Source: Chiloscyllium plagiosum
Lineage: Eukaryota
Assembly: GCF_004010195.1 (NCBI RefSeq)
Contig: NC_057755.1
Location: forward strand, 7,453,312-7,508,607
Length of the DNA stretch: 55,296 nucleotides
Direction: 5' to 3'
In this document: positions 11,048 through 55,296 of the stretch, piece by piece
Numbering within the stretch: position 1 is the first letter of the stretch
Layout of the letters: every line of letters starts with the position of its first letter
The notes under the pieces: generated by a model
Told to the model about the DNA's origin: nothing
The model's database searches: none
Seen by the model: the letters and a program-made list of their open reading frames with translations, nothing else
Position numbers and translations under genes: made by a program

Positions 11048-11134
11048 TCCTGATGAATGGCTCTTGCCTGAAATGACGATTTTCCTGTTCCACGGATTTT
11101 GCCTGACCTTTGTGCATTTCCAGCACCACTCTAA
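11048..11134 (+). mobile_element. Short PLE-terminus insert with a degenerate hammerhead (duplicated at ~12651-12738)
   Basis: ctgatgaatggctcttgcctgaaatgac core; 14-bp TSD tcttatccacatta at 11034-11047 and 11135-11148. Confidence 0.75.
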
Positions 11135-11691
11135 TCTTATCCACATTAATAACAATCTGAATATTTGTGTTTAATTGACCACAGTATCGAAAATGACACC
11201 CCTCCCTATGCCTCCTCCAGTAAAAGGTCGACCTTTTGTGCAGGCGCAGTCGACAATGTCTAGAGCGGCCCAATTACAAAAGGGCCTCCATCTTACCGGA
11301 GCACATCAGACACGTATTCAGCCAACACCAGCTCATTAGTAACTTATGTGATGCACTTGCTTTGATCAGTCTGGGCATTGAGATGAAAAGCAGGATGTTT
11401 ATGATGGAATTGTTGTAAACCATTGCTTCGGGCTCACCCAAGATATTCTGTGCAGGTCTCAATCCACATGATAGGCAGAATGTGATCAATCTGGGGAGGG
11501 TGCAATGGACATTCACCAGTACGGTGTTCTTGCTGGAGATGGCTTGCTTTGGTATAAAGTGGACAGACCTGGATTGTTTTCTGGAGAACAAAGGAATTGA
11601 GAACATAGAACATAGAAAGTTTGTGAGAAGATTTGTCGCTCGGGTGCTGCTCATTGTTGTGGTTCCATTCACTGAGCTGGGAATTTGTGTT

Positions 11692-11731: not shown

Positions 11732-13230
11732 TTGGGAGCCTCCTGTGAAGCGCTTCTGTGATCTTTCCTCCGGCATTTGCACTGGTTTGAATCTGCCGCT
11801 TCCGGTTGTCAGTTCCAGCTGTCCGTTGCAGTGGTCGGTATATTGGGTTCAGGTCGATGTACTTATTGATTAAATCTGTGGATGAGTGCCATGCCTCTAG
11901 GAATTCCCTGACTGTTCTCTGTTTGGCTGGTCCTATAATAGTCGTGCAGTCTCGACTGCCTCGTTACACCGGGAACTCCAAAGAATCACAATTCTTTAGG
12001 TGCAGAAGTTCTTCCTCAATTCAGGCCTAAATATGCTTCCCTTTATTTTGAGGCTATGCCACCCATTCTGTAGTTTCACCCACCCTCAAATGCAACATTC
12101 CTGCTTCGACCTTATCTATTCCCTTCATAGTCGAATATGTTTCAAGAAGATTCCCCTTCATTGTTCTCAATTCCAATGAGTGCAGTCCCAGTCTACTTAA
12201 TCTCTTTTTGTAAGCCAACCCTCCCAAATCAGGAATCAACCAAGTGGACTTCCTCTGCATCCCTTTCAGTGCGGGTACATACCAGTCAAGTTCTCCAAGT
12301 GTGGTCTCAATAGCACCCCACGCAGCTGAAGCATAACCTCCTTATTTTAATCTTCATCCCGCCAGCAATGAAGGACAATATTCTATTTGCTTTCTTAACT
12401 ACCTGATGCACCTGCAAACCAATACTTTATGATTCGTATACAAGGATTCCCTGGTCCCTGTTTATGTTTCTTTGCAAAAGGCACCGCAGACTGCCAGACC
12501 TGCGCTGTGATCAACTGACATTTTAAAGACTCCCACATGTAAGATGTGAACTTATCCTCAAATAGGTTCCTCCAATCTAGTTTGTTTTATTTTAATGGAG
12601 CCTCCCTGCAATCTAACATTTTCACTCAAGGACTAGCCTTATCCACATTATCCTGATGAATGGCTCTTGCCTGAAATGACGATTTTCCTGTTCCACGGAT
12701 TTTGCCTGACCTTTGTGCATTTCCAGCACCACTCTAATCTTATCAACATTAATAACAGTCTGAATATTGAATGTTTAATTGACCACAGTATCGAAAATGA
12801 CACCCCTCCCTATGCCTCCTCCAGTGAAAGGTCGATCTTTTGTGCAGGCACAGTCGACAAACAAGGTCTAGAGTGGCCCAATTACAAAAGGGCCTCCATC
12901 TTACCGGAGCACATCAGACACTTATTCAACCAACACCAGCTCATTAGTAACGTATGTGATGCACTTGCTTTGATCAGTCTGGGCATAGAGATGAAAAGCA
13001 GAATGTATATGTTGGAACTGTTGTAAACCATTGCTTCGGGCTCACCCAAGATATTCTGTTCAGGTCTCAATCCACATGATAGGCAGAATGTGATGAATCT
13101 GGGGAGGGTGCAATGGACATTCACCAGTACGGTCTTCCTGCTGGAGATGGCTTGCTTTGGGGATAAAGTGGACAGACCTGGATTGTTTTCTGGAGAACAA
13201 AGGAATTGAGAACATAGAACATAGAACATA

Positions 13231-20305: not shown

Positions 20306-20331
20306 GAGTTTACAGAATAAAAGCCTACTGT

Positions 20332-22396: not shown

Positions 22397-24575
22397 ATTT
22401 ACCACCATAACATGCACAGTTAGGTAGCACAATGACTCACGAGGCTTAGTATAACATTTGCCTTTTTGTAAGGAGAATGACCATGAAGCTAGGGTGACTC
22501 ACTTCAACCACATAAGGATTAATTTCACTTGATGTACTCTGCAATAGATTTGCTCCTGGAGGAACAACATTATTGCACTGGGAACAATTCATGGAAGATT
22601 TATTCGTTTGAATCCTAAATCAGGTAGCTATGAAAGGCACTCCACAAGTGTTATCATGTCAATTGTCATGGCCAGAATACGTACAAAGCGGATGGAGGTT
22701 CAGGGAACATTGTGCTGAGCCCTTGACAGAACACAACTTGCTGGAACTGGTTCTATTATATTTGTACATTAGGGATTTTTGGTCAGCTTGATGCAGAGTC
22801 TATTCCCTGGAGACAGTCACAATCTTTGATAAAGGTGCAAAATGTGACAGTGTAGATCAAAGATGGTACAGATAGCAGAAGGGAAAAGATTTTAGTCACC
22901 GAGCTCAGACTGAAAGAAGGCAATACGACACAAAACAAGAAACAAGGAACAAAGAAATATTACAGCACAGGAACAGGCCGTTTGGCCCGGTAAGCCTGTG
23001 CCGACCCAGATCCTCTGTCTAAACCTATTGCCTATTTTCCAAGAGTCTGTATCCCTTTGCTCTCTCTCCATTCATGTATCGTTCTAAATACATCTTAAAT
23101 GACGCTATCGTGCCCATTTCTACCGTCTCCAATGGCAACACGTCCCTGGAACACACCAACCTCTGCATAAAGAACTTTTCACGCATTATCTCCCCTAAAC
23201 CTTTCCTCTCTCAGTTTGAATGCGTGATCTCTGGTAATTGAGTTCCACACTCTGGGGAAAAAGATTTTTGATGTCCATCCAGTCTATACATAAAACATAG
23301 AACATAGGACAGTACAGCACACAACGGGCCCTTCAGCCCACGATGTTGTGCTGACCATTGATCCTCATGTGAGTTAAACCTAATGTACAAACCCTCAAAT
23401 TTCTCTGACCATATGCATGTCCAGCAGTCTCTTAAATATCCCCAATGACCTCGCTAGCACAACTGCTGCTGGCAACGCATTCCATGCTCCCACAACTCTC
23501 TGTGTAAAGAACCCGCCTCTTACATCCCCTCTATACTTTCCGCCAAACAGCTTAAAACTATGACCCCTCGTGTTAGTAATTTCTGCACTGGGAAAAAGTT
23601 TCTGGTATCAACTCTATCTATGTATCTCATTATCTTGTACACCTCAATAAGGTCCCCTCTCTTCCTTCTTTTTTCCAATGAAAAACTTCTGAGCTAAGTC
23701 AACCTCTCTTTGTAAGATAAGCCCTTCTTTCCAGGCAGCATCCTGGTACAACTCCTCTGAACCCTCTCCAACGCATCCACATCTTTCCTGTAATACGGCG
23801 ACCAGAACTGGACACAGTATTCCAAGTGCGGTCTCACCAAAGTTTTATGGAGCTGCAACAAGATCTTACGGCTCTTAAACTCAACCCCTCTGTTAATGAA
23901 AGCCAAAACACCATATACATTCTTAACAACCCTGTCCACCTGGGTGGTAATTTTAAGGGATCTATGTACCTGCACCCCAAGATCCCTCTGTTCCTCCACA
24001 CTGCCAAGAATCCTGTCTTTAATCCTGTACTCAACTTTCAAATTCCACCTTCCAAAATGCATCCAGGTTGAAATCCATCTGCCACCTCTCAGCCCATCTC
24101 TGAATCCTGTCAATATCCCACTGCAGCCTACAACAGCCCTCCATACTGTCAACGACACCTCCAATCTTTGTGTCGTCTGCAAACTTGCTGACTCATCCAT
24201 CAATCTCCTCATCCAAGTCATTAATAAAAATTACAAACCGTAGAGGCCCAAGGACAGAGCCCTGTGGAACACCACTCACCACAGACTTCCAGGCAGAATA
24301 CGTTCCTTCCACTACCACTCGCTGTCTTCTGTCGACCAGCCAATTCTGTATCCAGACAGCTAAGTTCCCCTGTATCCCATTCCTCCTGACCTTCTGAATG
24401 AGACTACCATGGGAAATCTTATCAAATGCCTTTCTGAAGTCCTTATTCACAACATCCACTGCTCAACTTATCTAGTAACATCCTCAAAGAGCTCAATAAG
24501 ATTTGTGAGGCATGATCAGCTCCTCACAAAGCCGTGTTGACTGCATTTAATCAAGCCATGCTCTTCCAGCTGGTC

Positions 24576-25916
24576 GCTGAAAATGTGTTGATGGAAAAGC
24601 ACAGCAGGTCAGACAGCATCCAAGGAGCAGGCGAATCTCCGTTTCAGGCATGAGCCCTTCTTCAGGAATGAGGAAACTGTGCCCAGTAGGCTAAGATAAA
24701 AGGTAGGGAGGAGGGACTTGGGGAGGGACATTGGAAATGCGATAGGTGGAAGGAGATCAAGGTAAGGGTGATAGGCCAGAGTGGGGTTGGGGTAGGAGAA
24801 ATCAGGAAGAAGATTTCAGGTTAGGAAGGTGGTGCTGAGTTCGAGGGTTTGGACTGAGACAAGGTGGGGGGAGGAGAAATGAGGAAACTGGAGAAATCTG
24901 AGTTCATCCCTTGTCGTTGGAGGTTCCCTAGGCGGAAGATGAGGCGCTCTTCCGCCAACCGTCGTGTTGCTATGGTCTGGCGATGGAGGAGTCCAAGGAC
25001 CTGCATGCCCATGGTGGAGTGGGTGGAGGAGTTGAAGTGGGGTGGTTCAACGAACCCCACCACTAGGGATATATTTCCCTCCCCTCCCCTATCAGCGTTC
25101 CAAAAAGACCACTCCGTCTGTGACTCCCTCGCCAGGTCCACACATCCCACCAACCCAACCTCCACTCCCGGTACCTTCCCCTGCAACTGCAAGAAATGCA
25201 AAACTTGGGCCCACACCTCCCCCTCACTTCCCTCCAAGGCCCATGGGATCCTTCCATATCCGCCACAAATTCACCTGCACATCCACACACATCATTTACT
25301 GCATCCGCTGCACCCGATGTGGCCTCCTCTATATTGGGGAGACTGGCCGCCTACTTGTGGAGCATTTCAGAGAACACCTCTGGGACACCCGGACCAACCA
25401 ACCCAACACCCCATGGCTCAACACTTCAATTCCCCCTCCCACTCCACCAAGGACATGCAGGTCCTTGGACTCCTCCATCGCCAGACCATAGCAACACGAC
25501 GGTTTGAGGAAGAGCACCTCATCTTCCGCCTAGGAACCCTTCAACCACAAGGGATGAACTCAGATTTCTCCAGTTTCCTCATTTCCCCTCCCCCACCTTG
25601 TCTCAGTCCCAACCCTCGAACTCAGCACCACCTTCCTAACCTGCAATCTTCTTCCTGACTTCTCCGTCCCCACCCCCACTCCGGCCTATCACCCTCACCT
25701 TGATCTCCTTCCACCTATCGCATTTCCAATGTCCCTCCTCCAAGTCCCTCCTCCCTACCTTTTATCTTAGCCTGCTGGACGCACTTTCCTCATTCCTGAA
25801 AAAGGGCTTATGCCCGAAACCTCGATTCTCCTATTCCCTGGATGCTGCCTGACCTGCTGCGCTTTTCCAGCAACACATTCTCAGCTCTGATCTCCAGCAT
25901 CTGCAGTCCTCACTTT
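24576..25916 (+). mobile_element. Neptune-like PLE 3' portion (family A) with ~465-bp inverted terminal arms
   Basis: PCNCKKCKT and HIIYCIRCTRCGLLYIGETGR (GIY-YIG) in the centre; arms 24576-25039 and ~25422-25885 are reverse complements; flanks ctcttccagctggtc / ctcttccagatggcc (15 bp, 2 mismatches). Confidence 0.85.
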
Positions 25917-27490
25917 CTCTTCCAGATGGCCATAAATCCTATCCCTCAGAATCTTTTCTAACACCTTGTGGATGAATGTCGTGAGACTGACTGGTCTGCA
26001 ATTGTTGGGGATTCCCCTATTTCCTTTCTTGAAGAGAGGAATTACATTTGCCTCTCTCCAGTCCTTAGGTATGATTCCAGTAAAGAGCGAGGATGCAAAG
26101 ATCTTCACAAGCGGCGAAGCAATCACATTTCTCGCATCCCAAAGCAGCCGAGGACAAATCTGGTCTGACCCTGGCAACTTGTCAATCTTAACTTCTGTCA
26201 ACTCCTCAAACTCCTGAATCTCTATCTGTTCCAGCATGCTTACCTGCTCCTCAATGGTTTCATTCACTACAAGGTCCTTTTTTATTTAGTAAAGACAGAA
26301 GCAAAAAACTCATTTAGGGCTTTCCCTATCTCCTCATTCCTCTCATGAATTTTGTAGGTACCCTCTTCAACCTCTGTCTTTCTAATGAAAATAATCAGAA
26401 TCTACACAGTGTCTCTTCATAGATAGCACCCTCCATACCAGGCAACATCCTGGTGAACCTCCTTTGCACCCACTCCAAAGGATCCACATCCTTTTGGTAA
26501 TGTGGCGACCAGAACTGTACACAGTATTCCAAATGTGGTCAAACCAAAGTCTCATACAACTGTAATATGACCTGCTACCTCTTGTACTAAAATCACTGTC
26601 CGATGAAGGGATGCACTGTATGCCTTCTTGACCACTCTACTGACCTGATTTGCTCTGTTCAGGGAAAAATGGACCTGAACACCCAGATTTCTCTGTACAT
26701 CAATCTTCCCCAGGACGTTTCCATTTACTGTAAAGTTGCTTTTGAATTAAATCTTCCAAAATACATCACCTCGCATTTGCCCGGACACTCTGACAGATCC
26801 CTTCACAATCTGCTACTCCACCAACCTTAGTGACATCTGCAAACTTGCTAATCAGGGCACCTACACCTTCCTTCAAATCATTTATGTGTATCACAAACGA
26901 CAGTGCTGCCATAACGGATCCATTTTGAGAAACTCTCTTCCACTGCTACTATCTGTCTCCTGTTGCCGAGCAAGCTCTTGACTCGATGCAACATCACCTT
27001 TTCATCAGACTACCGTGGGGGGCCTTACCTAACACCTTACCAAAGGCCATGTATATGACATCTATAGCCCTTCCCTCATGAATTAACTTCGTCACTTCTT
27101 CTAAGAATTCTATTAGGTTGGTAAAGCATGACCTTCCCTGCACAAAGTCATCTTGCCTACCACTGATAAGCTCATTTTCTTCCAAATGGGAATAGATACT
27201 ATCCTTCAGTATCTTCTCCAGCAGCTTTCCTACCACTGATATCAGCCTCACCGGTCTATAATTACCTGCATTATCCCTGCTACACTTCTCAAACAAGGGG
27301 ACAACATCAGGAGATTGGCTGCACAGTGGCTCAGTGGTTAGCACTGCAGCCTCACAGCATCAGAATCCCAGGTTCGATTCCAACCTCAGGGGACTGTCTG
27401 TGTGGAGTTTACACGTTCTCCCTGTGTCTGCGTGGGTTCCCGCCCACAGTCCAAAATGTGCTGGTCTGGTGAATTGGCCATGGTAAATTG

Positions 27491-27994
27491 GTTGTCCTGG
27501 TTGGGTCCAAGTTTTGTTGATCGGAACGTAGTCCGGAGTCTGTGCGGGATAAGTCGGTTCTGTAGGCAGGTGCTGAGGAAGGAGATGTGGTTGTGGTAGC
27601 GAGTCTGTTTGAGAATGTGGCTGAAGAGCTTCTGTGCAGAGGAGATGACCTGGGGGGTGCAGTGAGACAGGGACTCACTGAAACCTATGTAGAGGGAGAA
27701 AGAGAGCTTCTTCAAGGAAGGCATCCTTGTAAGATAATTCGCAGTAGGTTGAAATTTTGAGGAGAAAGTGAGGTCTGCAGATGCTGGAGATCAGCGATGG
27801 AAATGTGTTGCTGGAAAAGCGCTTCAGGTCAGGCAGCATCTAGGGAACAGGAGAATCTTCAGGGCATTCCTGAAGAAGGGCTAATGCCGGAAACGTCGAT
27901 TCTCCTGTTCCCTAGATGCTGCCTGACCTGCTGCGCTTTTCCAGCAACACATTTACATCTCTGATCTCCAGCATCTGCAGACCTCACTTTCTCC
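27491..27994. mobile_element. PLE family A insert: minus-strand terminus plus ORF start, joined to an inverted terminus with a hammerhead
   Basis: 13-bp TSD at 27478-27490 and 27995-28007; 97-bp inverted arms 27761-27857 and 27898-27994; minus ORF with HISFLSTCLQNRLIP. Confidence 0.85.
27866..27901 (+). ncRNA. Minimal hammerhead motif (family A)
   Basis: attc CTGAAGA a gggc taat gccg GAAA cg TC gatt; one mismatch each in stems I and II. Confidence 0.6.
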
Positions 27995-33554: not shown

Positions 33555-36192
33555 ATAGCTTCAGTGTGGGTAGTGGCTGCCGTCAGGGATGTCCCCTCTC
33601 GCCATTGTTATTTATGCTAATAATTGAACCACTAGCAGAAGCAGTACGAGCTGATCCTAATATAGTGGCCCCAAGGATTGGTACAGGTAAACATAAAATT
33701 ACCCTTTATGCAGATGATGTTCTTCTATTCCTCAGTAATCCTTTGATGTCCATACCTCGCTTAATCCAAGTTATTAATACATTTAGTGCATTCTCAGGCT
33801 ATAAAATTAATTTTTCAAAATCGGAGGCTATGCCAATGGGTGGCCTTGCTGTGATACCCCGCTTAGCGGACGGTTCCCTTTTTCCCTTTCGCTGGTCCCT
33901 GGAGGGTTTCTTATATTTAGGCATTTTTATTACTCCAGTATTTGGTCAGTTGTATAAGGCTAATTTTGTGTATTTATTGGAAAGGATAAGGCAGGACCTC
34001 CAGCGATGGGGAGTCCTTCCAATTTCCTGGTTGGGTAGAATAGCACTAATCAAAATGAATGTCCTGCTCCGTCTCCTATATCCTATGAGAATGCTTCCGG
34101 TGATGCTGCCGAGGACGGTTTTATGTAAATTATATGGCTGGCTGAGTTCCTTTATCTGGAATCATAGGTGGCCCCTCATTAAGCTGAAGAAGCTACAGCT
34201 TCCACAGGCAAGGGGTGGATTGGACTTCCCAGACTTTAGGAAATATCAGTTAAGTTCCCTATTAAGTTACATCGCTGATTGGGTCTTGTCTGATCCACAA
34301 TCAATCTGGTTGGACATCGAGGCCTCTCAAGTAAAATACCCACTTATTAACCTTTTATTCTCAGACAAGAGGAAAATCATTACAGATCACTGTAAAAACC
34401 CTATAATACTAAATACAATTAAGGCATGGAATATAATGCGGCAAAATGAGGGTAACTCACATAAAACATCCCCCTATACACCGATAGTGGGAGCATGGGG
34501 ATTCCAACCGGGGTTTACAGATGCCACTTTTAAACTCTGGAGATCCAGGGGTACCTCATGTTAAGGGAATCTATTTAAAGATGGGGTCCTGATGTCTTTT
34601 GAACAGCTGCGTCAGAAATTCGGATTACCTAATGGAGACCTATTTCGATACTTCCAAATTCGAGATTATATACAGAAGAAGACTACGTTTAAAGATAGTC
34701 CTTATAAATCAGATAGAGAATGTAGTGTCCAACGACCAGTGGAGGTATCTTCCATCAGTACTATTTATCATTTACTACATGATGAAGTATCGGGAGATAT
34801 GGATAATCTGCTTAAAACATGGGATCAGGATTTGGAACTAGAAATCTCTATAGATATGAAATGATATTTGGGAAAATGCTAGAAGAATTACTATCTGTAA
34901 CAGAACCCAGGCTATCCAGCTGAAGATACTTCATAGGGCCCATGTAGCACCGGTCTGAGTGGCAAAATTTAAGGCAGGAGAATCTCCAATGTGTCCTAAA
35001 TGCAAAATAGAGGTGGGCACTCTTGTACATTGCCAATGGACCTGTCATAAGATTCGTAGATATTGGACTAAAGTAGCAAGTACCCTGACAGAAATTTTAG
35101 GAACAGAAAGTAAAGTGGATCCTGTATCTCTCCTTTTGGGCTTTTCGAACTTTCCCTCCCTGGACACGTACGGGAAGAGACTATTTTCTATTCTTTCTTT
35201 CTGTGCAAGGAAAAATATTTTGGTGAACTGGGTGGCTGAGGGCCCCCCTGGACTTTCAAATTGGCACAGATTAATTATGGAATGTATTCCCCCTTGAGTT
35301 CCTTACAAATATGGTGCACCGAAAGACCGAATTATTTTATAAAATATGGTAGCTTTTCTTGAATTACATAAATACAGATATTTCGGCTATCCTAACAAGG
35401 GCTTTTATTTAATTGAGATTACAAACCTGGCTTGTCCGGGGCCCCTCAGGGGAGGAATCCCGCACGAATATGGGTTTTATTACATCTGATGTTAACACAT
35501 TCCGAGCATGTAAAAGACTTAAATATAAACTCTGGTTATTTGTAGGTTAGATTAGTAGGTAGTTGAGTTTTGCTTTTTGTCTTCTTTTCCATTTTTTTTG
35601 TCTTTTGTTAAATTTTGGCTATTGTATACTTGAGTTAATTGTATATCAGTGTTTATATCTGAGAGTTTTGTTTATTTTTGTAAATTTGTAAAAATGTTAA
35701 ATTTCTAATAAAAATATCTATATAAAAATGTTTGGAGTTGAGTGACCCTTCAACTCATTTTCATTGCACAGTTTATTTTCCCACCGATGCCGTCAAACCG
35801 TCTGAGCTTTTCCAGAAATGTCTGTTTTTGTGTCTGATTTACAGCAAATGCAGATCTTTCAATTTCTACAAGATATAAACTTCAGATACTGAGGTCAAAC
35901 AGGGAAAGTAAATTTGCTATTCCTAGACTTTGTGACTCCTTCAGGGGAACAGGTTTATCGATTACTGTGGAGAGGCCAGATAAATTGAATGTGCTCTAGT
36001 TCGGAAAGCGACCATTGTGCATTGGATTGGAGTGGGATTGTTAAGGGTGGGCGGAGGAGGAGTGGGAGATGTGGTGATGATTTCCCCACAGTGGCTTACG
36101 GTGATTTGGAGATGCTGGTGTTGGAATGGGGTGTATCAAGTTAAAAATTACACAATACCAGGTTAGAGTCCAACAGGTTTAATTGGAAGCAA

Positions 36193-36488: not shown

Positions 36489-36670
36489 NNNNNNNNNNNN
36501 NNNNNNNNNNNNNNNNNNNNNNNNNNNNNNNNNNNNNNNNNNNNNNNNNNNNNNNNNNNNNNNNNNNNNNNNNNNNNNNNNNNNNNNNNNNNNNNNNNNN
36601 NNNNNNNNNNNNNNNNNNNNNNNNNNNNNNNNNNNNNNNNNNNNNNNNNNNNNNNNNNNNNNNNNNNNNN
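36489..36670. other. Assembly gap
   Basis: Run of n. Confidence 1.
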
Positions 36671-37097: not shown

Positions 37098-37851
37098 AAG
37101 TGCAAAGGTGGTCGCCTCTAATGTGACATGAACCCAAGGACCCGGTTGAGGCCCTCCCTAAGTTTATGGAAATTAAATCAGTCTCTGCTCAGCTACCATT
37201 CACTGCTGCCTGACCCGTTGTCCACCTTGGAGGATGGTCACCCTAAGGTCTGATGTCGAATGTCCTGGACTGCTGCAGTGTTCCCCATCTGGGAGGGAAC
37301 ACTCATGTCTGTGGATTGTTGTCTCATGCCCATTTATCCGTTGTCGTAGCCTTTTATCGGTTTCCCCAATGTACCATGGCTCATGGCATCCTTGCCTGCA
37401 ACGTATAAGATAGATAATATTGGCTGAGTCACATGAGTACCTGCACGTACACGGTGGGAGGTGTCCCCACCTGTAATGGTGGTATCCATGTCCACACTCT
37501 GACATGTCTTGCAGCACCTACCGTGACAGGGCTGTATGGAGTTGTTCTGAAAGCCGGGCAGCTTGCTCCGCACAATGATCTGCTTGAGGTTTGGCGATTG
37601 TTTAATTTGAGCAGTGGAGGTGTGGCGAAGGTCTTGGCAAGGAGCTCATCCTCATTGATAATGTGTTGCAGGCCACGAAGTTTTTCAGCTTCTGGGAAAT
37701 ACTGTCGGTTGCAGCATGTGTCTGCCTCCTGAGGAGATCATTACTGTTCCTTGCTGTGGCACGTCGGAACTGGTGGTCGATGAGTTGAGCATCATACCCC
37801 ATTCTCATGAAGGCATTCCTGAATACTTTCAAGTGCCCGTCACGTTTTGTT

Positions 37852-38163
37852 TTAGATTGCTTACAGTGTGGAAACAGGCCCTTCGGGCCAACAAGTCTAC
37901 ACTGACCCACCGAAGTGCAACCCACCAGACCCATTCCCCGACATTTACCCCTTCACTTAACACTACGGGCAATTTAGCATGCCAATTCACCTAACCTGCG
38001 CATTTTTGGATTGTGAGAGGAAACCAGAGCACCCGGAGGAAACCCATGCAGACACAGGGAGAATGTGCAAACTCCACACAGTCAGTCGCCTGAGGCGGGA
38101 ATTGAACCCGGGTCTCTGGCGCTGTGAGGCAGCAGTGCTAACCACTTAGCCACCGTGTCGCCA
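37852..38163 (-). mobile_element. HE1-type SINE
   Basis: Reverse complement of 2114-2425. Confidence 0.9.
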
Positions 38164-38945
38164 ACGTTCCTCCTCATCTGAGCAGATCCAGTGTACACGT
38201 TGGGCTTGCCCATAAGGGATGGCTGTTTTAATATGTTTTGTGTGGAAGCTGGAGAAGTATAGTATTGTAAGGTTGTCTGTGTGTTTTGGGGTAGAGTGTG
38301 GTGCTGAGGTGTCCATCCTTGATGGAGATGCATGTGTCCAAGAATGAGACAGACAGTCAAGAGCAGTCCATGGTGAGTTTGATGGTGGGTTGAAGCTTGA
38401 TATCACTGTGTAGATTTATCAGTGATTCCGCGCCATGGGTCCAGAGGAAGAACATGTTGTCAGTGTACCTGGTGTATAATGTTGGATCCTGCAGAGAGAA
38501 GAAGTCTTGTTCGAATCTGTGCATGAAGGTGTTGGCATCTTGGGGTGCAAATTTGATCCCCATGGCTGTTCCATGTGTCTGGACGAAGAACTGGTTGTCA
38601 AAGGTGAAGACATTGTGATTGAGGATAAAGCGGATGAGTTGTAGGACAGAGTTTGGAGATTGGCAGTTGTTGGTGTTGAGTACTGAGGCTGTTATCACCA
38701 TGCCGTCATTGTGGGGGATGCTGGTGTATCACGCTGACACGAGGAATGTGGCGATGATTGTTCGCAGTTTGACTGGTCTGTGGCTGCTGAGTTTCTGTAA
38801 GAAGTCCGTAATATTGCAACAGAAGTTGGGGATACCCTGTACAATAGGTTTCAAGACGCCTTCAACATGGCCGGAGCGATTCTCAGACAGGGTCCCATTA
38901 CCTGATATGATGGGACGTCCTGCTGTGTTGGCTTAGTGTATCTTT

Positions 38946-41994: not shown

Positions 41995-42124
41995 ATTCCT
42001 AAAGAAAAGCTTATGTTTGAAACATGGACACTCCTGTTCCTCGGATGTTGCCTGACAGGCCGTGCTTTTCCAGCACCACACTTTTAGACTCTGATCTGTA
42101 GTATCTGCAGTCCTCACGTTCTCC
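41995..42124 (+). mobile_element. Decayed PLE-terminus insert (family A) in the intron
   Basis: ttcctaaagaaaagcttatgtttgaaacatg (eroded hammerhead) followed by the gcttttccagca...ctgcagtcctcac tail. Confidence 0.7.
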
Positions 42125-42447: not shown

Positions 42448-42650
42448 CTAAAAATGTGTTGCTGGAAAAGCGCAGCAGGTCAGGCAGCATCCAAGGAGCA
42501 GGAGAATCGACGTTTCGGGCATGAACCCTTCTTCAGGGCTCAATTCTCGTCGATTCTTCTGCTCCTTGAATGCTGCCTGACCTGCTGTGCTTTTCCAGCA
42601 ACACATTTTCAGCTAGGATCTCCAGCATCTGCTGTCCTCACTTTCTCCTC
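42448..42650. mobile_element. Palindromic PLE-terminus insert with a minus-strand hammerhead core, in the intron
   Basis: Inverted arms; minus strand CTGAAGA a gggt tcat gccc GAAA cg TC at ~42509-42536; TSD caagaag(a/g)ataaggg at 42433-42447 and 42651-42665. Confidence 0.85.
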
Positions 42651-43160
42651 CAAGAAGGATAAGGGTCTATTACATGAGAAAGTAATGTGAATTTGATAAA
42701 AAGTTCTCCTGTACAGAGGAAATCAGAGTTTAAGATGGAATCAATCATTTTCTGTTCTGCTGCCTAATATTATACAGCACTTGTGCTTCCTGGGAGCAAT
42801 TTATATCAACGTCCCTTTTATATAGAAAGTATTTCAAGCAAAATGTTGTGATGATGGAGCTTTAAAAGAAGCACTGAAGCTGCTGTAGAAATTGCTCAGG
42901 TCTGGTAGCGCCTGTGGAGAGAGAGAAGCAGAGATAAACTTTTACGCTCAGATGTGGCTTTTCTGCAGAACTCTACACAAGCCGAATATGATCCAGTGAG
43001 CTGTCATGCCCGCTAATATCATGGTTATCATTATTTAAATTCAGTCTTGTTTCCGACTCAAAACTTCGAATTGCTAAAGTACAGCATTTGCCACCTAGAT
43101 TCAGGAACGAACATTGTTTTATCAGCAATTTCCAACAAAATTCCTTTCTGTTTCTTCCAG

Positions 43161-44077
43161 TTAATTTATGCGCAATTGTGATCCTGTCCCGAGAAAAATG
43201 CGGAATCTCCACCTGTACAAAGCATTACATGGTTGCCATGGCAACGACAGATCTGCTGTTCGTTATTTTAGAGATCATACTCAGCAAAGTGGAAAATGAT
43301 TATTTCCCGTCAACGTTCCTGAACATCACCTCTGTGTGTCGTGTATGTTATGCCCTACGTCGTGCAATCATCGACTGTTCTGTTTGGTTCAATGTCGCCT
43401 TCACCTTTGATAGATTTGTTGCTATTTGTTGTCAGAAGCTAAAATTGAAGTATTGTACCAAGAAAACTGTGGCTGTGGTTCTAGCGACATCAAGCATTCT
43501 GCTCTGTTTAAAAAACATTCCCATCTACTTTAGATTTAGACATGGAATGATTATTAACCACATGCCATATTATTGTTTTAATTCGAAAGCATATTATGTT
43601 AATCTCTTGTGGAGACGATTTAAATTATTTGAAAAGATTTTAACTCCAATATTCCCATTTGGTTTAATTTTGTTACTCAACACTCTAACAATCAGTCAAA
43701 TTTTCGTGACCAATCGAGTCCGCAAGAGATTGATGTGCCCGAACAAGGGTGAGAATCACAGGGACCCAGAGATGGAGAGCAGAAGGAAATCAATGATATT
43801 ACTCTTCGCCATATCCGCCAATTTCATACTTCTGTGGGTGTGGTACATTTTAGGTTATTTTGGTGTTGCTGATGATATCTTCGATAGTGACGGTGAATAT
43901 ACGTTTAAACGTGTTTCATATATGCTCCGCAATTTAAGTTGCTGCACAAATTCTTTGATTTATGCAGTGACTCTGCCCAAGTTCAGAGAACACGTGATCA
44001 ATGCAGTGAAATATCCACTGAAATTTATTGTTCAGTTTATTAATCGGAAAAGGAGGGGAGGGGAGGTCATAGATTAA
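43161..44077 (+). CDS. GPR139-like class A GPCR, coding exon 2 (TM1 end to C terminus); spliced product 327 aa
   Basis: Acceptor ttcctttctgtttcttccag|TT gives in-frame GVPVN. TM2 AMATTDLL, TM3 C..DCSVWFNVAFTFDRFVAIC, ECL2 Cys, TM5 PIFPF..LLN, TM6 FILLW, TM7 CCTNSLIY, helix 8 KFRE. No internal stop; 67+917=984 nt. Confidence 0.92.
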
Positions 44078-44753: not shown

Positions 44754-44873
44754 TGGATTAGTGGTGCTGGAAAAGCACAGCAGTTCAGGCAGCATCCGAG
44801 GAGCAGTAGAAATGACGTTTTGGGCAAACGCCCTTCATTAGGAATACAGCATCCTCAGACATTGTTTTTTACT
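44754..44873 (-). mobile_element. Short PLE-terminus insert with a degenerate hammerhead
   Basis: Minus strand attcctaatgaagggcgtttgcccaaaacgtc; flanks ctcaccat(c/t)acc at 44742-44753 and 44874-44885. Confidence 0.7.
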
Positions 44874-47755: not shown

Positions 47756-48105
47756 NNNNNNNNNNNNNNNNNNNNNNNNNNNNNNNNNNNNNNNNNNNNN
47801 NNNNNNNNNNNNNNNNNNNNNNNNNNNNNNNNNNNNNNNNNNNNNNNNNNNNNNNNNNNNNNNNNNNNNNNNNNNNNNNNNNNNNNNNNNNNNNNNNNNN
47901 NNNNNNNNNNNNNNNNNNNNNNNNNNNNNNNNNNNNNNNNNNNNNNNNNNNNNNNNNNNNNNNNNNNNNNNNNNNNNNNNNNNNNNNNNNNNNNNNNNNN
48001 NNNNNNNNNNNNNNNNNNNNNNNNNNNNNNNNNNNNNNNNNNNNNNNNNNNNNNNNNNNNNNNNNNNNNNNNNNNNNNNNNNNNNNNNNNNNNNNNNNNN
48101 NNNNN
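47756..48105. other. Assembly gap flanked by ~700-bp direct repeats
   Basis: Run of n; 47056-47755 matches 48106-~48803. Confidence 0.95.
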
Positions 48106-49284: not shown

Positions 49285-49553
49285 AAAACTGAAAGAACTG
49301 CAGGTGCCGTAAATCAGAAACAAAGACAAATCGTGCTGGAAAAGCTCAGCAGGTCAGGCAGCATCCGTGAAGAGAAATCAGAGTTAACATTCAGACGAAA
49401 GGCCATNNNNNNNNNNNNNNNNNNNNNNNNNNNNNNNNNNNNNNNNNNNNNNNNNNNNNNNNNNNNNNNNNNNNNNNNNNNNNNNNNNNNNNNNNNNNNN
49501 NNNNNNNNNNNNNNNNTTCTAATCTCCAGCGTCTTGTAGTCCTCACTTTCGCT
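49285..49553. mobile_element. PLE-terminus arms on either side of an assembly gap (N 49407-49517)
   Basis: gctggaaaagctcagcaggtcaggcagcatcc on the left; atctccagc..gtcctcactttc on the right. Confidence 0.6.
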
Positions 49554-50099
49554 TAGATGGGTTTGACTTAGATTGGATTAGTATGAATTAGGTTTGGAAT
49601 AGATTGGATCAGATTGGTTTAAATACTAGAATTGAGAAAGGGGAAAGGAGGATGCAGATGTGGTATTATAAACACACACAAAGAAAACTAACAGATTCGG
49701 GTCATGATTTAATATCAATATATGGTTTAATATTCAAAGAATATTAATAGATTCTGAGCTTGTTGAAAACAAGGCATTGGAAATAGCAAGAAATCCCAAC
49801 AAATGGTAGATTTAAGTGAACTGTGAAAGTTCAATTTCATTGACATGGCAAGTAGCACTGAAATGCAGAGCTAGAAAGGCATGAATAACTTGAATTATTA
49901 GAACAATATTTATATTCGGACAAAATAGAAAGGAGACCATGAAAAACGAACTATCAGAATTAGGAGATATCCAGTCTCAATTGAGCATAGAACATAAAAG
50001 AATGCAGCACAATCAAGGCCATTCGACCCTTGATGTGGCAATCCTTTATCCTGCTCTAAGATTGAATTAATTGACTTTCCATTCAATTTACTATAATCC

Positions 50100-51195
50100 T
50101 TCTGACTATCCAAGAATTGCTTAAATGTCGTGAGTGGTTCTGCCCCGACGTGAAATTAAGTCTCTCCATACTCTTTTGCCATCTTCTTCGAGGATTATAG
50201 CAACAACACCCACATCGTGTGCATCAATGGTCATCGAATACATGAATGGCTTTGCGCAATTGAGTGTTTCTCACACAGGGCAGTGGGGAAAACAGATTTT
50301 AGGCTTTGAAATTCATCCTCACATTCATTCATCCACTAAAAATTTCTGCATTTCTTCAAATCGACAGTCAGTGGAACATCTTTATGAACGGTGTAGGGAA
50401 CATTTCAAAAAGATTTGTTCTCACATCCTACAGGGCTATCTATCCATGTGCAATGGTACGGCCTAGGAATGTTACTTGGGTTTTTGCGAATTCATTGTTA
50501 GCCAGGTCTATCACCAAACTTGTTTCCTGAAGTTGATTCAACAATTCTGCCAGATGCTCCAAATGCTCCCTCCATCTGTGACCAAAGATCACCAGATCAT
50601 TGATGTACACCACATGATCAATTAATTCCAAATTTACCTTAATACTTAATCTTTGAAATGTGGCTTGTGCATTTTTCACATCAAATTGCTTGACTAAAAA
50701 CTGGGTGAAGTCCATTTGGTGACATGAAACATGGAATATCATTTGCTTTTTCAGATAAAGTACCTGTTAACATCCTTTGATAAATCAACATGAGAAATGT
50801 AAGTCGCTTGCCTACCCTTCTCAATACATTCTTCAATTCATGTACATAGGTTACAAATGCTTTGGATTTTCAAAGGTCCACACAAAACTGTTGGATCCCT
50901 TATGGTGAACTCCATTCACTGCAACTCACTTTGATTATGTCACCAGTGAGCATGCTTCCAATCGCTTTTGGAACGTGTGTGAATTTTAGAGAGTTAAGCC
51001 TGTACAGCAGTTGCTTAATTGGAAAAGCACTTCCTATAGCTACATCATACACAATCAGTTTAGTACTTCCTAGTTCAGATAAATTCAGATAAATGTAGTA
51101 CTCCCACAGAGGGAGCCATGAGATTCTCCTGGCACTTTTTGGTGATGTTGATTTTCCTCTGGAAGTGAATTCAACAACTTATTCCAGTTTCTGAA
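50100..51195 (-). mobile_element. Ty3/Gypsy pol remnant (RT-RNase H)
   Basis: FDVKNAQATFQRL..VYINDLVIF..HLEHL..VTFLG (degenerate MPFG/YIDD region); KPF..IDA.DVGV RNase H start. Confidence 0.78.
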
Positions 51196-52174
51196 AATGG
51201 CTTATAAGAGACTTAGAGTCATAGAGATATACAGCATGGAAACAGACCCTTTGGTTCAACCCGTCCATGCCGACCAAATATCCCAACCTAATCTAGTCCC
51301 ACCTGCCAGCACATGGCCCATATATCTCCAAACCATTCCTATTCATATACCCACCCAAATTCCTCTTAAATTTTGCAATTGTACCAGCCTCCACTACATC
51401 CTCTGGCAGCTCATTCCATACACGTACAAACCTCTGCGTGAAAACGTTGCCCCGTAGGTCATTTTTATAGCTTTCTCCTCTCACCCTAAACCTATGCCCT
51501 CTAGTTCTGGACTTCCGATCGCAGAGAAAATAATTTGCCTATTTACTCTATCCGTGCCCCTCATAGTTTCATAAACATCTATAAGGTCACCTCTCAGCCT
51601 CCGACGCTCCAGGGAAAACAACCCAGGCCTGTTCAGACTCTCCCTATAGCTCAAATCCTCAAACCCTGGCAACATCCTTGTAAATCTTTTCTGAACCCTT
51701 TCAATTTTCATAACACCTATCCAATAGGAAAAAGACCAGAATTGCATGCAATATTCCAACAATGGCTGAACCAATGTCCTGTACAGCCACAAAATGATCT
51801 CTGAATTCCGAAACTCAATACTCTGACCAATAAAGGAAAGCATACCAAACGCCTTCTTCACTATCCTATCTATCTGCAACTCCACTTTCAAGGAGCTATG
51901 AAGCGGCACTCCAAGGTCTCTTTGTACAGCAACATTCCCCACGACCTTAACATTAAGTGGAGAAGTCCTGTTAAGATTTACTTTCCCAAAATGCAGCACC
52001 TCGCATTTGTCTGAATTAAACTCAATCTGCCACTTCTCAGCCCATTGGCCCATCTGATCAAGATCCTGTTGTAATCTGAGGTAACCCACTTCGCTGTCCA
52101 CGATACCTCCAACTTTGGTGTCATCTGCAAACTTACTAACTGTACTTCTTACGCTCGCATACAAATCATTTATG

Positions 52175-52353
52175 GAGAAAGTGAGGACTGCAGATGCTGG
52201 AGATCAGAGCAGCAAATGCGCTGCTGGAAAAGCACAGCAGGTCAGGCAGCATCCAAGGAGCAGGAGAAGAAGGGCTCATGCCCGAAATGTCGATTCTCCT
52301 GCTCCTTGGATGCTCCCTGACCTGCTGTGCTTTTCCAGCAACACATTTTCAGC
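52175..52353. mobile_element. Palindromic PLE-terminus insert
   Basis: Inverted arms around a partial hammerhead agaagggctcatgcccgaaatgtc; exact 15-bp TSD tacaaatcatttatg at 52160-52174 and 52354-52368. Confidence 0.9.
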
Positions 52354-53566
52354 TACAAATCATTTATGTAAATGACAAAACGTCGAGGATACAGCATTGT
52401 TTCTTGTGGCACTCCACTGATCACAGGTCTCCAGTCTGAAAAACTTCCCTCCACCACCACCCTCTGTCTTCTACCTTTGAGCCAGTTCTGTACCAAACGA
52501 CTAGGTCTCGCTGTATTCTCTGAGATCTCACCTTGCTAATCAGTCTCCCATGGGGAACCTTGTCAAACGCCTTACTGAAGTCCATACAGATCACATCTAC
52601 CTCTCTGCCCTCATCAATCCTCTTTGTTAATTCCTCAGTAAAATTCAATCAAGTTTGTGAGACATGATTTCCCATGCACAAAGCCATGTTGACTATCCCT
52701 AATCAGTCATTGCGTTTCCAAATACATGTACATCCTGTCCCTCAAGATTCCCTCCAACAACTTGCCAGCACCGACATTAGGCTCACTGGTCTATAGTTCC
52801 CTGGATTTTCCTTACCACCTTTCTTAAACAGTGGCACCACGTTAGCAAACCTCCAGTTTTCTGACACCTCACCTGTGACTATCGATGATACAAATATCTC
52901 AGCAAGAGGCCCAGCAATCACTTCTCTAGCTTCCCACAGAGTTCTAAGGTACACCTGACCAGTTCCTGCGGATTTATTCACCTTCAACCATTTCAAGACA
53001 TCCAGCACTTTCTCCTCTGTAATTTGGACATTTTGCAAGATGTCACCATCTATTTCCCTACTGTCTATAACTTCCATATGCTTTTCCACAGTAAATACTG
53101 ATGCAAAATTCTCATTTAGTATCTCTCCCAATTTCAGCGGCTCCACACAAAGGCCACCTTGCTGATCTTTGAGGGGCCCTATTCTATCCCTAGTTACTCT
53201 TTTGCCCTTCATGTATTTGTAAAAAATCTTTGAATTCTCCTTAACTCTATTTGCTGAAGCTATCTTATGTCCCCTTTTTGCTCTCCTGATTTCCCTCTTA
53301 AATATACTCTTACTTCCGTTAAACTGTTCTAAGGATTCAATCAATCTTTCCTGCCTGTACCTGACATATGCTTTCTTCTTTTTCTTAACCAAACCCTCTG
53401 TTTCCTAAGTCGTCCAGCACTCCCTATACCTACCAGCCTTCCCTTTCATCCTGTCAGGAATATACTTTCTCTGGATTCTCGTTATCTCATTCCTGAAGGC
53501 TTCCCATTTTCCAGCCGTCCCTTTACCTACGAACGCCTGCCCCCAATCAGATTATGTAAGTTCTTG

Positions 53567-53696
53567 AAGGACCTGAAGAAGGGCTAATTCCCGAAACGTC
53601 GATTCTCCTGTTCCTTAGATGCTGCCTGACCTGCTGCGCCTTTCCAGCAACACATTTCCATCTCTGATCTCCAGCATCTGCAGACCTCATTTTGTC
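53567..53696 (+). mobile_element. 130-bp PLE-terminus insert beginning at a hammerhead core
   Basis: CTGAAGA a gggc taat tccc GAAA cg TC; exact 15-bp TSD ttatgtaagttcttg at 53552-53566 and 53697-53711. Confidence 0.9.
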
Positions 53697-53946
53697 TTAT
53701 GTAAGTTCTTGCCGAATATCGTCAACATTGCCCTTTCTCCAATTTAGAACTTCAAATTTTAGATCTGGCATATCCTTTTTCACTATTATTTTAAATCTAA
53801 TAAAATTATGGTCGCTGGCAAAGTGATCCCCCCCTGACACCTCAGTAACCTGCCCTGCCTTATTTCCCAAGAGTAGGTTCAAGTTTTGCACCTTCTCTAA
53901 TAGGTACATCCACATACTGAATCAGAAAGCGTTCTTGTACACACTT

Positions 53947-54045
53947 GTACATTCCTGAAGAAGGGCATGTGCCCGAAACGTCGAATCTCCTGTTCCCTAG
54001 ATGCTGCCTGACCTGCTGTGCTGTTCCAGCAATAAAGTTTCAGCT
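53947..54045 (+). mobile_element. 99-bp PLE-terminus insert
   Basis: Exact 12-bp TSD ttgtacacactt at 53935-53946 and 54046-54057. Confidence 0.9.
53951..53986 (+). ncRNA. Best-preserved minimal type I hammerhead ribozyme motif (family A)
   Basis: ATTC CTGAAGA A GGGC ATGT GCCC GAAA CG TC GAAT: perfect stem I (attc/gaat), perfect stem II, full core, GUC cleavage triplet. Confidence 0.8.
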
Positions 54046-54499
54046 TTGTACACACTTCACAAATTTCAGTCCATCTAACCCTTAACACTGTGGCATTCCC
54101 AGTCAATGTTTGGAAAGTTAAAATCCCCTCCCCTACCACCCTGTTATTCTTCCAGATAGCTGAGATCTCCTTCCAAGTTTGTTTTTCAATTTCCCTCTGA
54201 CTATTATGGGTCTATAATGCAATCCCAATAAGATTAGCATCTCTTTCTTATTTCTCAGTTCCATCCAAATAACTTCCCTGGATGTCTTTCCGGGAATATC
54301 CTTCCTCAGCAGTGTTTTAATGCTATCCCTTATCAAAAATGCCTCTCCCATTCTTCTGTTGCCTCCCTTTCTATCCTTCCTGCAGCATTTGCATCTTGGA
54401 ACATGAAGCTGCCAGTCCTGCTCATCCCTGAGCCACATTGTCCGATTTAATTCTAGCAATGCCAAAATCAGTATCTTCTGAATTTAGTTCTTCACGCTA

Positions 54500-55025
54500 T
54501 GTAGCAAAAATTAACATATTTTGCATTTGGTATCCTTCCCCATCAAAATACCATTTGAACAAAATCACACAACACACTCTGTGTGAGTTTTCCTTCTTTG
54601 TTACATGGGAGTCAAATAATTAGTCTCATTCACTTTTCTTTCAGTTTGGTAAGGCCCACTAAGCCTTGCTTTTAAAGGTTCACCTAACACCGGAAGTAAC
54701 TCTAATAGTTCGTCTCCATGAGCAAAATTGAGACTTTTTGACAGTGTGAGCAATGACAAGAGGCAAAACATGTACCACTGCCAAAAAAAGCCAATTGCAC
54801 AAATCAATGTTTTTGAACGGTTGGGAACTCTTCAATAAGATTTGTTCTGACATCCTATATGGCTATCTATCCATGTCCAATGTTACGACCTAGTAACATG
54901 ACTTGGGTTTTTGCAAACTCAATCTTTGCCAGCTCTATCATCAAACTGGTGTCCTGAAGTTGATTGAACAATTATGCCAGATGCTCCAAATGTTCCTTAC
55001 ACCTGTGGAAGGAAGATCCTGCTCA
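54500..55025 (-). mobile_element. Ty3/Gypsy remnant (RT end fused by deletion to the integrase C terminus)
   Basis: EHLEHLA*LFNQLQDTSL..EFAKTQV matches 50440-50600; LKARLSGPYQ..NYL resembles the GPY/F module. Confidence 0.7.
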
Positions 55026-55029
55026 TATC

Positions 55030-55296
55030 TGGCAGATTGAATATGTTGTCTCATTACCATTACAACAACAATATTAGGATCTGCAAACCATGGTGGACAC
55101 TTACGCTGGGCTAATCTTAGCTTTCCCAGATAGCTGAAGTATTCTCCGACTGGATGGGAACCCTCTTGTCTGTTGATTGCTGTGTTGCGCCCATTCATCC
55201 ATTGCTGTAGCCTCTGCTCAGTTTTCCCAATGGACCATGCTTCAGGGCATCCTTGCCTGCAACGTATGAGATCGACAACATTGGCCGAGTCACTTG
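55030..55296 (-). mobile_element. PLE family C GIY-YIG fragment at the window edge
   Basis: Similar to ~37250-37440 (catccttgcctgcaacgtat..ttggc.gagtcac). Confidence 0.75.

What the first reader, a model, noticed from the sequence alone, without database searches (positions are those of the whole stretch)
53947..54045. Tiny (~90-200 bp) mobile inserts consisting almost entirely of a hammerhead ribozyme plus a short tail
Seen: a 99-bp insert with an exact 12-bp TSD starts 4 nt before a fully paired minimal hammerhead (53951-53986). Related short inserts occur at 11048, 12651, 41995, 42448, 44754, 52175 and 53567, with older relatives at 20332, 28765/35741, ~42870 and 49285. Where TSDs are readable they are 12-15 bp. 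The same sequence forms the terminus of the GIY-YIG-coding piece at 24576-25916. Established: PLEs carry minimal type I hammerheads with a palindromic stem III thought to act as dimers (Cervera and de la Pena 2014). Inference: a very abundant SINE-like, ribozyme-bearing PLE derivative whose 5' ends repeatedly fall at the ribozyme boundary; density here is roughly one per 4-5 kb.
Basis: partly seen in the sequence, partly recalled or inferred. Interest (0 to 1): 0.7.

Follow-up and report, generated by a model that had tools for sequence, protein, structure and literature searches.

The report
Hammerhead-headed Penelope retroelement stubs in shark
The short inserts are real but are not a separate mobile family: they are 90-130-base copies of the ribozyme-bearing leader of a known kind of jumping gene (a Penelope-like element), and most begin at the front edge of the ribozyme motif, likely because the copied RNA itself starts there.

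Summary
Observation confirmed. 53947-54045 is a 99-bp insert with an exact 12-bp TSD and a minimal type I hammerhead motif; 8 of 9 independent family loci have 12-15-bp TSDs. Corrections: the 4-bp stem I comes from a substitution seen in only this copy, copies show no covariation, and the five 'older relatives' are another family. The module is the pLTR end of a Neptune-type (GIY-YIG) Penelope-like element in a shark. One arm (27857-27491) runs through the tail into the first 78 codons of the ORF, so hammerhead plus tail is the element's mRNA leader. 3' ends fall at two sites about 33 nt apart, the known PLE tail. 5' ends are clustered: 8 of 13 arms start within 8 nt at the hammerhead's front edge, 3 near the cut, 2 far upstream; read depth in three of four public runs laid rises from that edge. 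Best reading: internally primed PLE reverse transcription runs off the RNA's 5' end. A separate SINE lineage is not supported. No RNA start or cleavage was shown. Solo PLE hammerheads are published, and this scan noted the same stubs on many other pieces of this genome. New member of a known kind; interest 0.3.

The parts
53947..54045 (+). 99-bp insert: 3 nt not from the element, then module m52-147 (hammerhead motif plus short end)
53935..53946 (+). left copy of exact 12-bp TSD
54046..54057 (+). right copy of exact 12-bp TSD
53951..53986 (+). minimal type I hammerhead motif; core 53955-53961, stem II 53963-53974, GAAA 53975-53978, palindromic ACGU 53978-53981, predicted cut after 53982
53567..53696 (+). 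single-arm insert m56-180 after 5 extra nt; exact 15-bp TSD (53552-53566, 53697-53711)
52175..52353 (.). head-to-head pair: minus arm m87-180, plus arm m59-146/147, 3-nt overlap at the junction; exact 15-bp TSD
44754..44873 (-). older subfamily arm from m53 (44845) with 28 extra nt at its 5' side; 12-bp TSD with 1 mismatch
42448..42650 (.). head-to-head pair: minus arm m56-145, plus arm m81/83-183, about 10 nt between; 15-bp TSD with 1 mismatch
41995..42123 (+). older single arm m53-180; no TSD found
27491..27724 (-). first 78 codons of the PLE ORF; ATG at 27724, 37 nt after the tail end
   Evidence: aligns from position 1 of an N-terminal profile of 79 full-length PLE proteins, E 2.3e-14
24574..25916 (.). 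long head-to-head insertion: minus arm about 465 nt ending at m146, plus arm about 880 nt ending at m177-180; 13-bp TSD with 1 mismatch
25053..25478 (+). frameshifted remnant of the linker (CX2-5CxxC-type, last Cys codon changed) and GIY-YIG endonuclease with the CxxC inside the core
25887..25919 (+). 33-nt 'tail' between the two 3' end sites
   Evidence: loose ends behind 25919; joint 25919 back to 25887 in 7 contigs of X1 and 1 of X10; window arms
11048..11135 (+). older subfamily single arm from m55, 13-bp TSD; lies in a tandem duplication
12651..12738 (+). duplicate of the 11048 insertion, not an independent event

Best explanation
The inserts are short copies of the hammerhead-plus-tail module that lies just upstream of the ORF start of a Neptune-type Penelope-like element, likely made by the element's own protein when it nicks a target, primes reverse transcription inside its mRNA at one of two tail sites, and runs off the RNA's 5' end, which is predicted to lie at the front edge of the hammerhead. 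Shown: the module is shared with the GIY-YIG-coding piece; it precedes the ORF's ATG by 37 nt; TSDs are 12-15 bp; 3' ends fall at two sites about 33 nt apart; 5' ends cluster at m52-59. From published work on another PLE: priming at two internal sites that bound the tail, and extension of both target strands. Inferred: an RNA 5' end near m52-53 (a transcription start, or a trimmed end); head-to-head pairs made from two cDNAs, one on each nicked strand, joined with microhomology or filler. The stubs would be dead-end by-products; long copies would need priming at a downstream pLTR of a read-through RNA. The hammerhead is predicted to be inactive as a monomer and not needed to make the main 5' end, because that end lies about 30 nt upstream of the cut site.
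For: Same module ends both arms of the GIY-YIG piece. Minus arm 27857-27491 reads module, tail, 37 nt, then an ORF that aligns from residue 1 to an N-terminal profile of 79 full-length PLE proteins (E 2.3e-14; best unrelated frame among 325 targets E 0.078), inside one exact 13-bp TSD. 3' ends: 6 of 13 arms at about m144-147, 6 at m177-183, 1 in the ORF (my tally); loose ends behind 25919 in 971 of 3805 laid reads of X21, 2027 contigs of X1 and 1422 of X10, with low agreement of the clipped letters (0.36-0.46), and a 33-nt tail repeat joint. 5' ends: 8 of 13 arms at m52-59, 3 at m81-87, 2 long; 8 of the 10 arms that reach m59 stop by m52, binomial P 2e-10 to 1.4e-4 for assumed truncation rates of 0.5-3% per nt. 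Depth in X21 goes 242, 848, 1643, 2050 over the bins from 25761, a 3.5-fold step at 25791; contig depth in X1 and X10 is flat upstream and climbs 6-fold from that bin on. 93% of laid X21 records run on into unlike sequence. A polymerase blocked by the fold would meet it at m85-88 first, not after m57 (inference). Frangieh 2024 (PMC11167929): internal priming at two sites bounding the tail, both strands extended, hammerhead mutants do not change insertion. Schostak 2008 (PMC2377424): Penelope has an internal promoter and starts in the upstream pLTR.
Against: No RNA 5' end was seen: table 6 lists no place where many molecules begin, and X21 is a poly(A) single-cell library read on both strands, so it mostly samples copies inside host transcripts; X22 laid 0 reads. 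No loose-end row at m52-59 is among the 18 rows shown (2420 not shown), so the genome-wide edge is known only to a 30-nt bin. The rise in contig depth is spread over three bins, partly from reference mismatches, an older subfamily and a second family sharing m100-135. X21 depth also rises 1.3-1.5-fold per bin over the 120 nt upstream, so ordinary truncation contributes. Starts are spread over 8 nt, and only 1 of 8 has a G just before the element, so there is no cap signature. The Inr-like TCATTCC at m51-57 is weak evidence: that pattern occurs 1.1 times per 100 nt in the window. In D. virilis the start lies well upstream of the hammerhead, with an intron between (PMC2377424, PMC4209133). The 8-nt window was chosen after seeing the data and n is 13.
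Confidence: 0.68

Rival explanations
1. A separate non-autonomous, SINE-like family: one or a few short master loci are transcribed from the hammerhead edge and mobilised in trans by the PLE protein.
For: Large excess of the module over the PLE body (about 6-fold in DNA contigs, about 20-fold in X21); fixed 5' edge; each short copy's nearest neighbour is as close or closer among short copies, by 0-2 sites. Non-autonomous PLE derivatives are published (MRC1 in PMC8557442; retrozymes in 10.64898/2026.07.22.740005).
Against: ORF-linked arms nest in both sub-lineages of short copies and no site marks short copies only (53 sites, low resolution); a short arm is paired with an arm that enters the ORF; 3' ends are the parent's two sites; there are 10 short but only 3 ORF-linked arms, which biases nearest neighbours to short ones.
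Confidence: 0.12
2. Ordinary steep 5' truncation of a longer RNA, with the pile-up caused at integration: pausing at the ribonucleoprotein or fold, or preferred joining at the ATT/TTCC letters of the hammerhead edge.
For: PLEs are heavily 5'-truncated (PMC8557442); X21 depth already climbs 1.3-1.5-fold per 30 nt upstream; junctions show microhomology and filler; PAc cuts at ATT (PMC11167929).
Against: No arm among 13 ends in the roughly 370 nt upstream of m52; contig depth in X1 and X10 is flat there; stops come after the fold has been copied.
Confidence: 0.14
3. The ribozyme cuts the template and so sets the 5' ends (retrozyme-like monomers released by self-cleavage).
For: 3 of 13 arms start at m81-87, around the predicted cut, one exactly at m85; the copy population carries the intact core (G at 25801 in 608 of 636 X21 reads; G at 25821 in 923 of 1106).
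Against: The main class keeps the whole core and starts 26-33 nt upstream of the cut, so it was copied from uncut RNA; one arm starts 2-4 nt upstream of the cut; no tandem units; the predicted catalytic dimer (-14.5 kcal/mol) is less stable than a non-catalytic dimer (-26.4); Frangieh 2024 found no reads ending at the cut in Anolis.
Confidence: 0.06

Closest known systems
Solo minimal hammerheads (min-HHR) of truncated metazoan PLEs (Cervera and de la Pena 2014, PMC4209133)
   Same: Type I core, unpaired base before stem II, G10.1-C11.1, palindromic 15.2-16.2 with no loop 3, weak stem I, location in the pLTR; mostly single dispersed motifs, some paired on opposite strands 100-700 bp apart.
   Different: Stem II is 4 bp, not 7-8 as in Schistosoma; sharks are not named in the parts I read; that text does not map insertion ends or report a 5' pile-up at the ribozyme edge.
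Insertion architecture of EN+ PLEs, Neptune clade (Craig 2021 PMC8557442; Arkhipova 2013 PMC3846280; Schostak 2008 PMC2377424)
   Same: C-terminal GIY-YIG with internal CxxC, CX2-5CxxC-type linker, 5' truncation, adjacent inverted copy, 30-40-bp optional tail, TSDs, pLTR and tail reaching towards or into the ORF start.
   Different: Here most insertions are reduced to the 90-130-nt module; TSDs are 12-15 bp against 8-10 bp in the Adineta passages read; targets are not microsatellites.
PAc (Poseidon of Anolis carolinensis) internal initiation (Frangieh 2024, PMC11167929)
   Same: Two 3' end sites bounding a tail, downstream of a pLTR hammerhead near the ORF start; both-strand extension would explain head-to-head pairs.
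   Different: Different clade; in PAc the ORF starts at stem II and priming is inside the ORF, here the ATG lies 37 nt past the tail; the text read does not discuss run-off stubs.
Non-LTR retrozymes (10.64898/2026.07.22.740005; PMC7229834 seen as listing only)
   Same: Short non-coding type I hammerhead sequences related to PLE pLTRs, with dispersed monomers; one chondrichthyan was among the genomes surveyed.
   Different: Retrozymes are defined by head-to-tail tandem units; these are single or head-to-head with TSDs and carry weak stem I.

Membership tests
EN+ Penelope-like element (Neptune type) | C-terminal GIY-YIG endonuclease with two cysteines between GIY and YIG | tested here: met
   25216-25488 frame: IIYCIRCTRCGLLYIGETG, Pfam PF01541 E 0.004 (below the curated cut-off), 76% to P0002 over 58 aa
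EN+ Penelope-like element (Neptune type) | CX2-5CxxC linker upstream of the endonuclease (Neptune/Nematis, absent in Poseidon) | tested here: met
   Window frame reads CNCKKCKTW with the last Cys codon changed; P0002 has CHRRNCKTC; 75 of 91 full-length relatives carry the motif. Neptune versus Nematis was not separated by an RT tree.
EN+ Penelope-like element (Neptune type) | Telomerase-like RT in the same ORF | tested here: inconclusive
   This family's RT is not in the window; the link runs through P0001/P0002 (84% and 76% to the window's EN piece) and their 91 long relatives
EN+ Penelope-like element (Neptune type) | pLTR with optional 30-40-bp tail, inverted 5'-truncated partner, TSD | tested here: met
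   33-nt tail, 4 head-to-head loci, TSD at 8 of 9 loci
Minimal type I hammerhead of PLEs | CUGANGA, extra base, stem II, GAAA, palindromic stem III, NUH, short stem I | tested here: met
   All present at 53951-53986; core intact in 4 of 14 aligned rows
Minimal type I hammerhead of PLEs | Covariation in stems I and II | tested here: not met
   3 pairs with two-sided change, reached by 65 of 500 shuffles; covariation score reached by 106 of 500. Few, neutrally decayed copies; low power.
Minimal type I hammerhead of PLEs | Self-cleavage as a dimer | not testable with these tools
   Needs a bench assay; folding does not favour the catalytic form
Independent SINE-like non-autonomous family | Own lineage with diagnostic changes absent from the autonomous partner | tested here: not met
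   ORF-linked arms nest among short copies (13 arms, 53 sites)
Independent SINE-like non-autonomous family | Own promoter or small-RNA-derived head | tested here: inconclusive
   All but 0-28 junction nt derive from the PLE module; no promoter assay, and no tRNA scan was run
Non-LTR retrozyme | Head-to-tail tandem units each with a hammerhead | tested here: not met
   0 of 9 loci are tandem; 93% of laid X21 records run on into unlike sequence
Non-LTR retrozyme | Circular RNA form | not testable with these tools
   No suitable library; no end-to-start joint among the 15 joints shown (185 not shown)

The most novel reading that the evidence does not exclude
Shark PLE insertions are a fossil record of the element's RNA ends. 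Stubs that start at the hammerhead's front edge mark the transcript start, and in head-to-head pairs one cDNA comes from an uncut RNA and the other from an RNA cut by the ribozyme, as expected if a protein dimer brings two RNAs together and lets the dimer-dependent hammerhead cleave in vivo. All 3 short head-to-head pairs here have one arm at m52-59 and one at m81-87.
Probability: 0.2. Interest if true: 0.65.

Novelty: new member of a known kind. Interest (0 to 1): 0.3.

Why it matters
What PLE hammerheads do in vivo is open: they cut poorly in vitro, and mutating one did not change insertion in the only reconstituted system. A genome with very many TSD-bounded stubs gives both cDNA ends at base resolution, so it can test where the template RNA starts and whether any templates were cut by the ribozyme. 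It would also explain the published excess of solo hammerheads as run-off by-products of internal priming rather than random decay. For annotation, these stubs should be filed under their parent PLE, not as a new SINE. The element class, the ribozyme and the architecture are all known.

Tried and rejected
Rfam scan: no hammerhead model matched; the 7 hits are microRNA models on the head-to-head hairpins and simple repeats. No whole genome is held for this window, so no genome-wide end map or consensus could be made. An exact-pattern scan of metagenome contigs found 0 loci. No RNA holder was listed for 50000-55296. X22 laid 0 reads, which is no test; no molecule-start peak in X21. Covariation among copies is not above shuffles. 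Folding: the whole 99-nt insert prefers an alternative hairpin that hides the core, and the homodimer prefers a non-catalytic duplex. Spliced-leader explanation rejected: no AG before m52 and the extra 5' letters are not shared among copies. Cap signature not seen (1 of 8). The source of the 28 extra nt at 44846-44873 was not found in the window. A profile search with the ORF N-terminus (ticket) was still queued and gave no result; answered that question. Lunse 2017 is not held. Dfam and Repbase could not be consulted, so the family may already have a library name.

Full report
Numbering. 'm' positions number the module on window 25740-25920 (m1 = 25740). The hammerhead core CUGAAGA is m57-63, stem II m65-76, GAAA m77-80, the predicted cut m84|85.

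1. The observation. The insert 53947-54045 is 99 bp and sits between exact 12-bp repeats; 3 of 300 random boxes of the same size gave an exact repeat that long. It holds 3 nt that are not from the element, then m52-147. The motif at 53951-53986 has every position of a minimal type I hammerhead, with the cut predicted after C53982. A strict scan found 2 such motifs in the window and none in 50 of 50 null sequences. Rfam has no matching model at E<=1. BLAST finds all the named relatives at 76-92% and one more locus at 27491-27994. After merging 11048 and 12651, which lie in a 94.7% identical tandem duplication, there are 9 independent loci with 13 arms; a fragment at 49518 was left out because an N gap cuts it. 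Eight of the 9 loci have 12-15-bp TSDs. The fully paired stem I is a private change: A at m87 occurs in 1 of 14 aligned rows. The core is intact in 4 of 14 rows, and only this copy also has both stems complete. Covariation is not above shuffles. The five 'older relatives' share about 35 nt with this family, resemble each other further, and lack a scannable core and a convincing TSD.

2. What it is. The host is a shark-like genome: the closest proteins are labelled Chiloscyllium punctatum (84%, 76%) and Hemiscyllium ocellatum (86%). The piece 24574-25916 is a head-to-head insertion with a 13-bp TSD. Its plus arm holds a frameshifted GIY-YIG domain with the internal CxxC and a CX2-5CxxC-type linker, which Craig 2021 gives as the mark of Neptune and Nematis. 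Both arms end in the module. At 27491-27994 the minus arm reads module, tail, 37 nt, ATG and 78 codons inside one exact 13-bp TSD. That frame aligns from residue 1 to a profile of the first 220 residues of 79 full-length PLE proteins (79 of the 91, those of 850-1000 aa) at E 2.3e-14; the best unrelated frame among 325 targets scored E 0.078. The module is therefore both the end of the pLTR and the leader of the ORF-bearing RNA.

3. The ends. By my tally' ends fall at about m144-147 (6 arms), m177-183 (6 arms) and inside the ORF (1 arm). In public runs laid on 25131-26030, the strongest loose end shown in X1, X10 and X21 is behind 25919 (2027 contigs, 1422 contigs, 971 of 3805 reads), with low agreement among the clipped letters, and a joint from 25919 back to 25887 shows the 33-nt tail repeated. 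This is the known 30-40-bp PLE tail, which Frangieh 2024 tied to two internal priming sites. 5' ends are m52, 52, 53, 53, 55, 56, 56, 59 (8 arms), m81-83, 85, 87 (3 arms) and two long arms. Eight of the 10 arms that reach m59 stop by m52; for assumed truncation rates of 0.5-3% per nt the binomial P is 2e-10 to 1.4e-4, with the window chosen after the fact. In X21 raw reads the depth by 30-nt bin from 25761 is 242, 848, 1643, 2050; in X1 and X10 contigs it is flat over the body and climbs about 6-fold over three bins from 25791. These depths are not copy numbers. X21 depth also rises 1.3-1.5-fold per bin upstream, no row at m52-59 is among the 18 loose-end rows shown, no molecule-start peak was listed, and X22 laid nothing. 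The reads show that most copies carry the intact core letters where this reference is mutated (608 of 636 and 923 of 1106 X21 reads).

4. How it likely works. The PLE protein would bind its own RNA near the ORF start, nick the target with a 12-15-nt stagger, and prime at one of the two tail sites. On an RNA that begins at the hammerhead's front edge the enzyme runs out of template after 95-130 nt, and the stub is joined with microhomology or filler. If both nicked strands are extended, two stubs meet head to head. Long copies need priming at a downstream pLTR. Internal priming and two-strand extension come from in vitro work on another clade; the RNA 5' end is inferred. Stops after the fold, not before it, argue against simple pausing. 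An Inr-like TCATTCC lies at m51-57, but that pattern is common (1.1 per 100 nt), only 1 of 8 junctions has a cap-like G, and D. virilis starts further upstream, so a trimmed rather than capped end remains open. The ribozyme does not set the main 5' end, which is about 30 nt upstream of the cut. Folding gives no support for activity of this copy: the 99-nt insert prefers another hairpin, and the catalytic dimer scores -14.5 against -26.4 kcal/mol for a non-catalytic one. All 3 short head-to-head pairs have one arm at the edge and one near the cut. That may record cleavage, or merely trimming to a microhomology; one of the three starts upstream of the cut and one can also be read as an internal deletion.

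5. SINE or stub. Over 53 shared sites, short-short distance averages 8.4 (45 pairs) and short-long 7.6 (30 pairs), and the three ORF-linked arms fall in both sub-lineages of short copies. With the parent's 3' ends and architecture, this argues against a separate master. The test is small.

6. Literature seen. PMC4209133: parts 1-2 of 4 (results, discussion); it reports thousands of mostly single min-HHRs 'probably related to truncated PLEs' and opposite-strand pairs. PMC11167929: parts 1-2 of 4; its supplementary PDFs 1-2 gave only figure labels, and Fig. S2 (genomic end coverage) may bear on whether 5' clustering is already shown. 10.64898/2026.07.22.740005: part 1 of 5, passages, Discussion; supplements closed. 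PMC8557442, PMC3846280, PMC6765202: passages only. PMC2377424: part 1 of 4 and passages. Lunse 2017: title in a reference list only. Seven searches listed no paper on shark PLE hammerheads or on 5' ends at the ribozyme edge; subscription papers, Dfam and Repbase were not searchable. Inr consensus and hammerhead numbering are recalled. The scan's own notes hold 147 hammerhead entries for this genome, several with the same reading; my reading was noted before I saw them, and they are not independent support.

7. Verdict. Real, abundant and well explained as stubs of a Neptune-type PLE. New member of a known kind, interest 0.3. The unpublished-looking detail is the 5' wall at the hammerhead edge with direct evidence that the module is the mRNA leader; it needs RNA end mapping.

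Noticed in passing
window 11728 (-) and 13344 (-); 13639-14648 (-): A second PLE family with its own hammerhead motif (CUGAGGA core, longer stem II, ACGU palindrome) beside GIY-YIG and RT fragments that show no Cys linker, so Poseidon-like.
   Followed up: partly
window 36223 (-); 37239-38728 (-): A third hammerhead type (CUGAUGA core, GAAAGCUA) near RT and GIY-YIG fragments 31-40% identical to P0002.
   Followed up: partly
window 20330-20407 (-), 28773-28840 (-), 35782-35865 (+), ~42870 (-), 49285-49387 (-): An older related family that shares only about 35 nt with the finding's module; no intact core or TSD. The 20330 piece lies 85 nt from a GIY-YIG fragment at 20069-20245.
   Followed up: partly
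window 10600-11945 and 12197-13561: Tandem duplication, 94.7% identical, that carries both the 11048/12651 insert and the Poseidon-like hammerhead region.
   Followed up: partly
window 27858-27864, 42538-42548, 52266-52268: Junctions of the three short head-to-head pairs: each joins an arm starting at the hammerhead edge to one starting near the cut, with 3-nt microhomology or 7-11 nt of filler resembling nearby element sequence.
   Followed up: partly
window 44846-44873: 28 extra nt between the TSD and the element's 5' end, with no source found in the window.
   Followed up: partly
window 42992-44077 (+): Open frame of 361 aa, a rhodopsin-family 7-TM receptor (PF00001, E 3e-15), flanked by the 42448 and 44754 inserts.
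   Followed up: partly
protein P0011: A Hemiscyllium protein named 'mucin-2-like' begins with the N-terminus of this PLE ORF (E 3.8e-33 against the PLE N-terminal profile), so the name looks like a mis-annotation.
   Followed up: partly
window 27350-27490 and 27995-28100: The 27491 insertion splits a short repeat that looks like a shark tRNA-derived SINE (recalled resemblance, not tested).
   Followed up: no
window 8713-9212, 32603-33554, 36489-36670, 47756-48105, 49407-49516: Five assembly gaps of N; the last cuts a module fragment at 49518.
   Followed up: no
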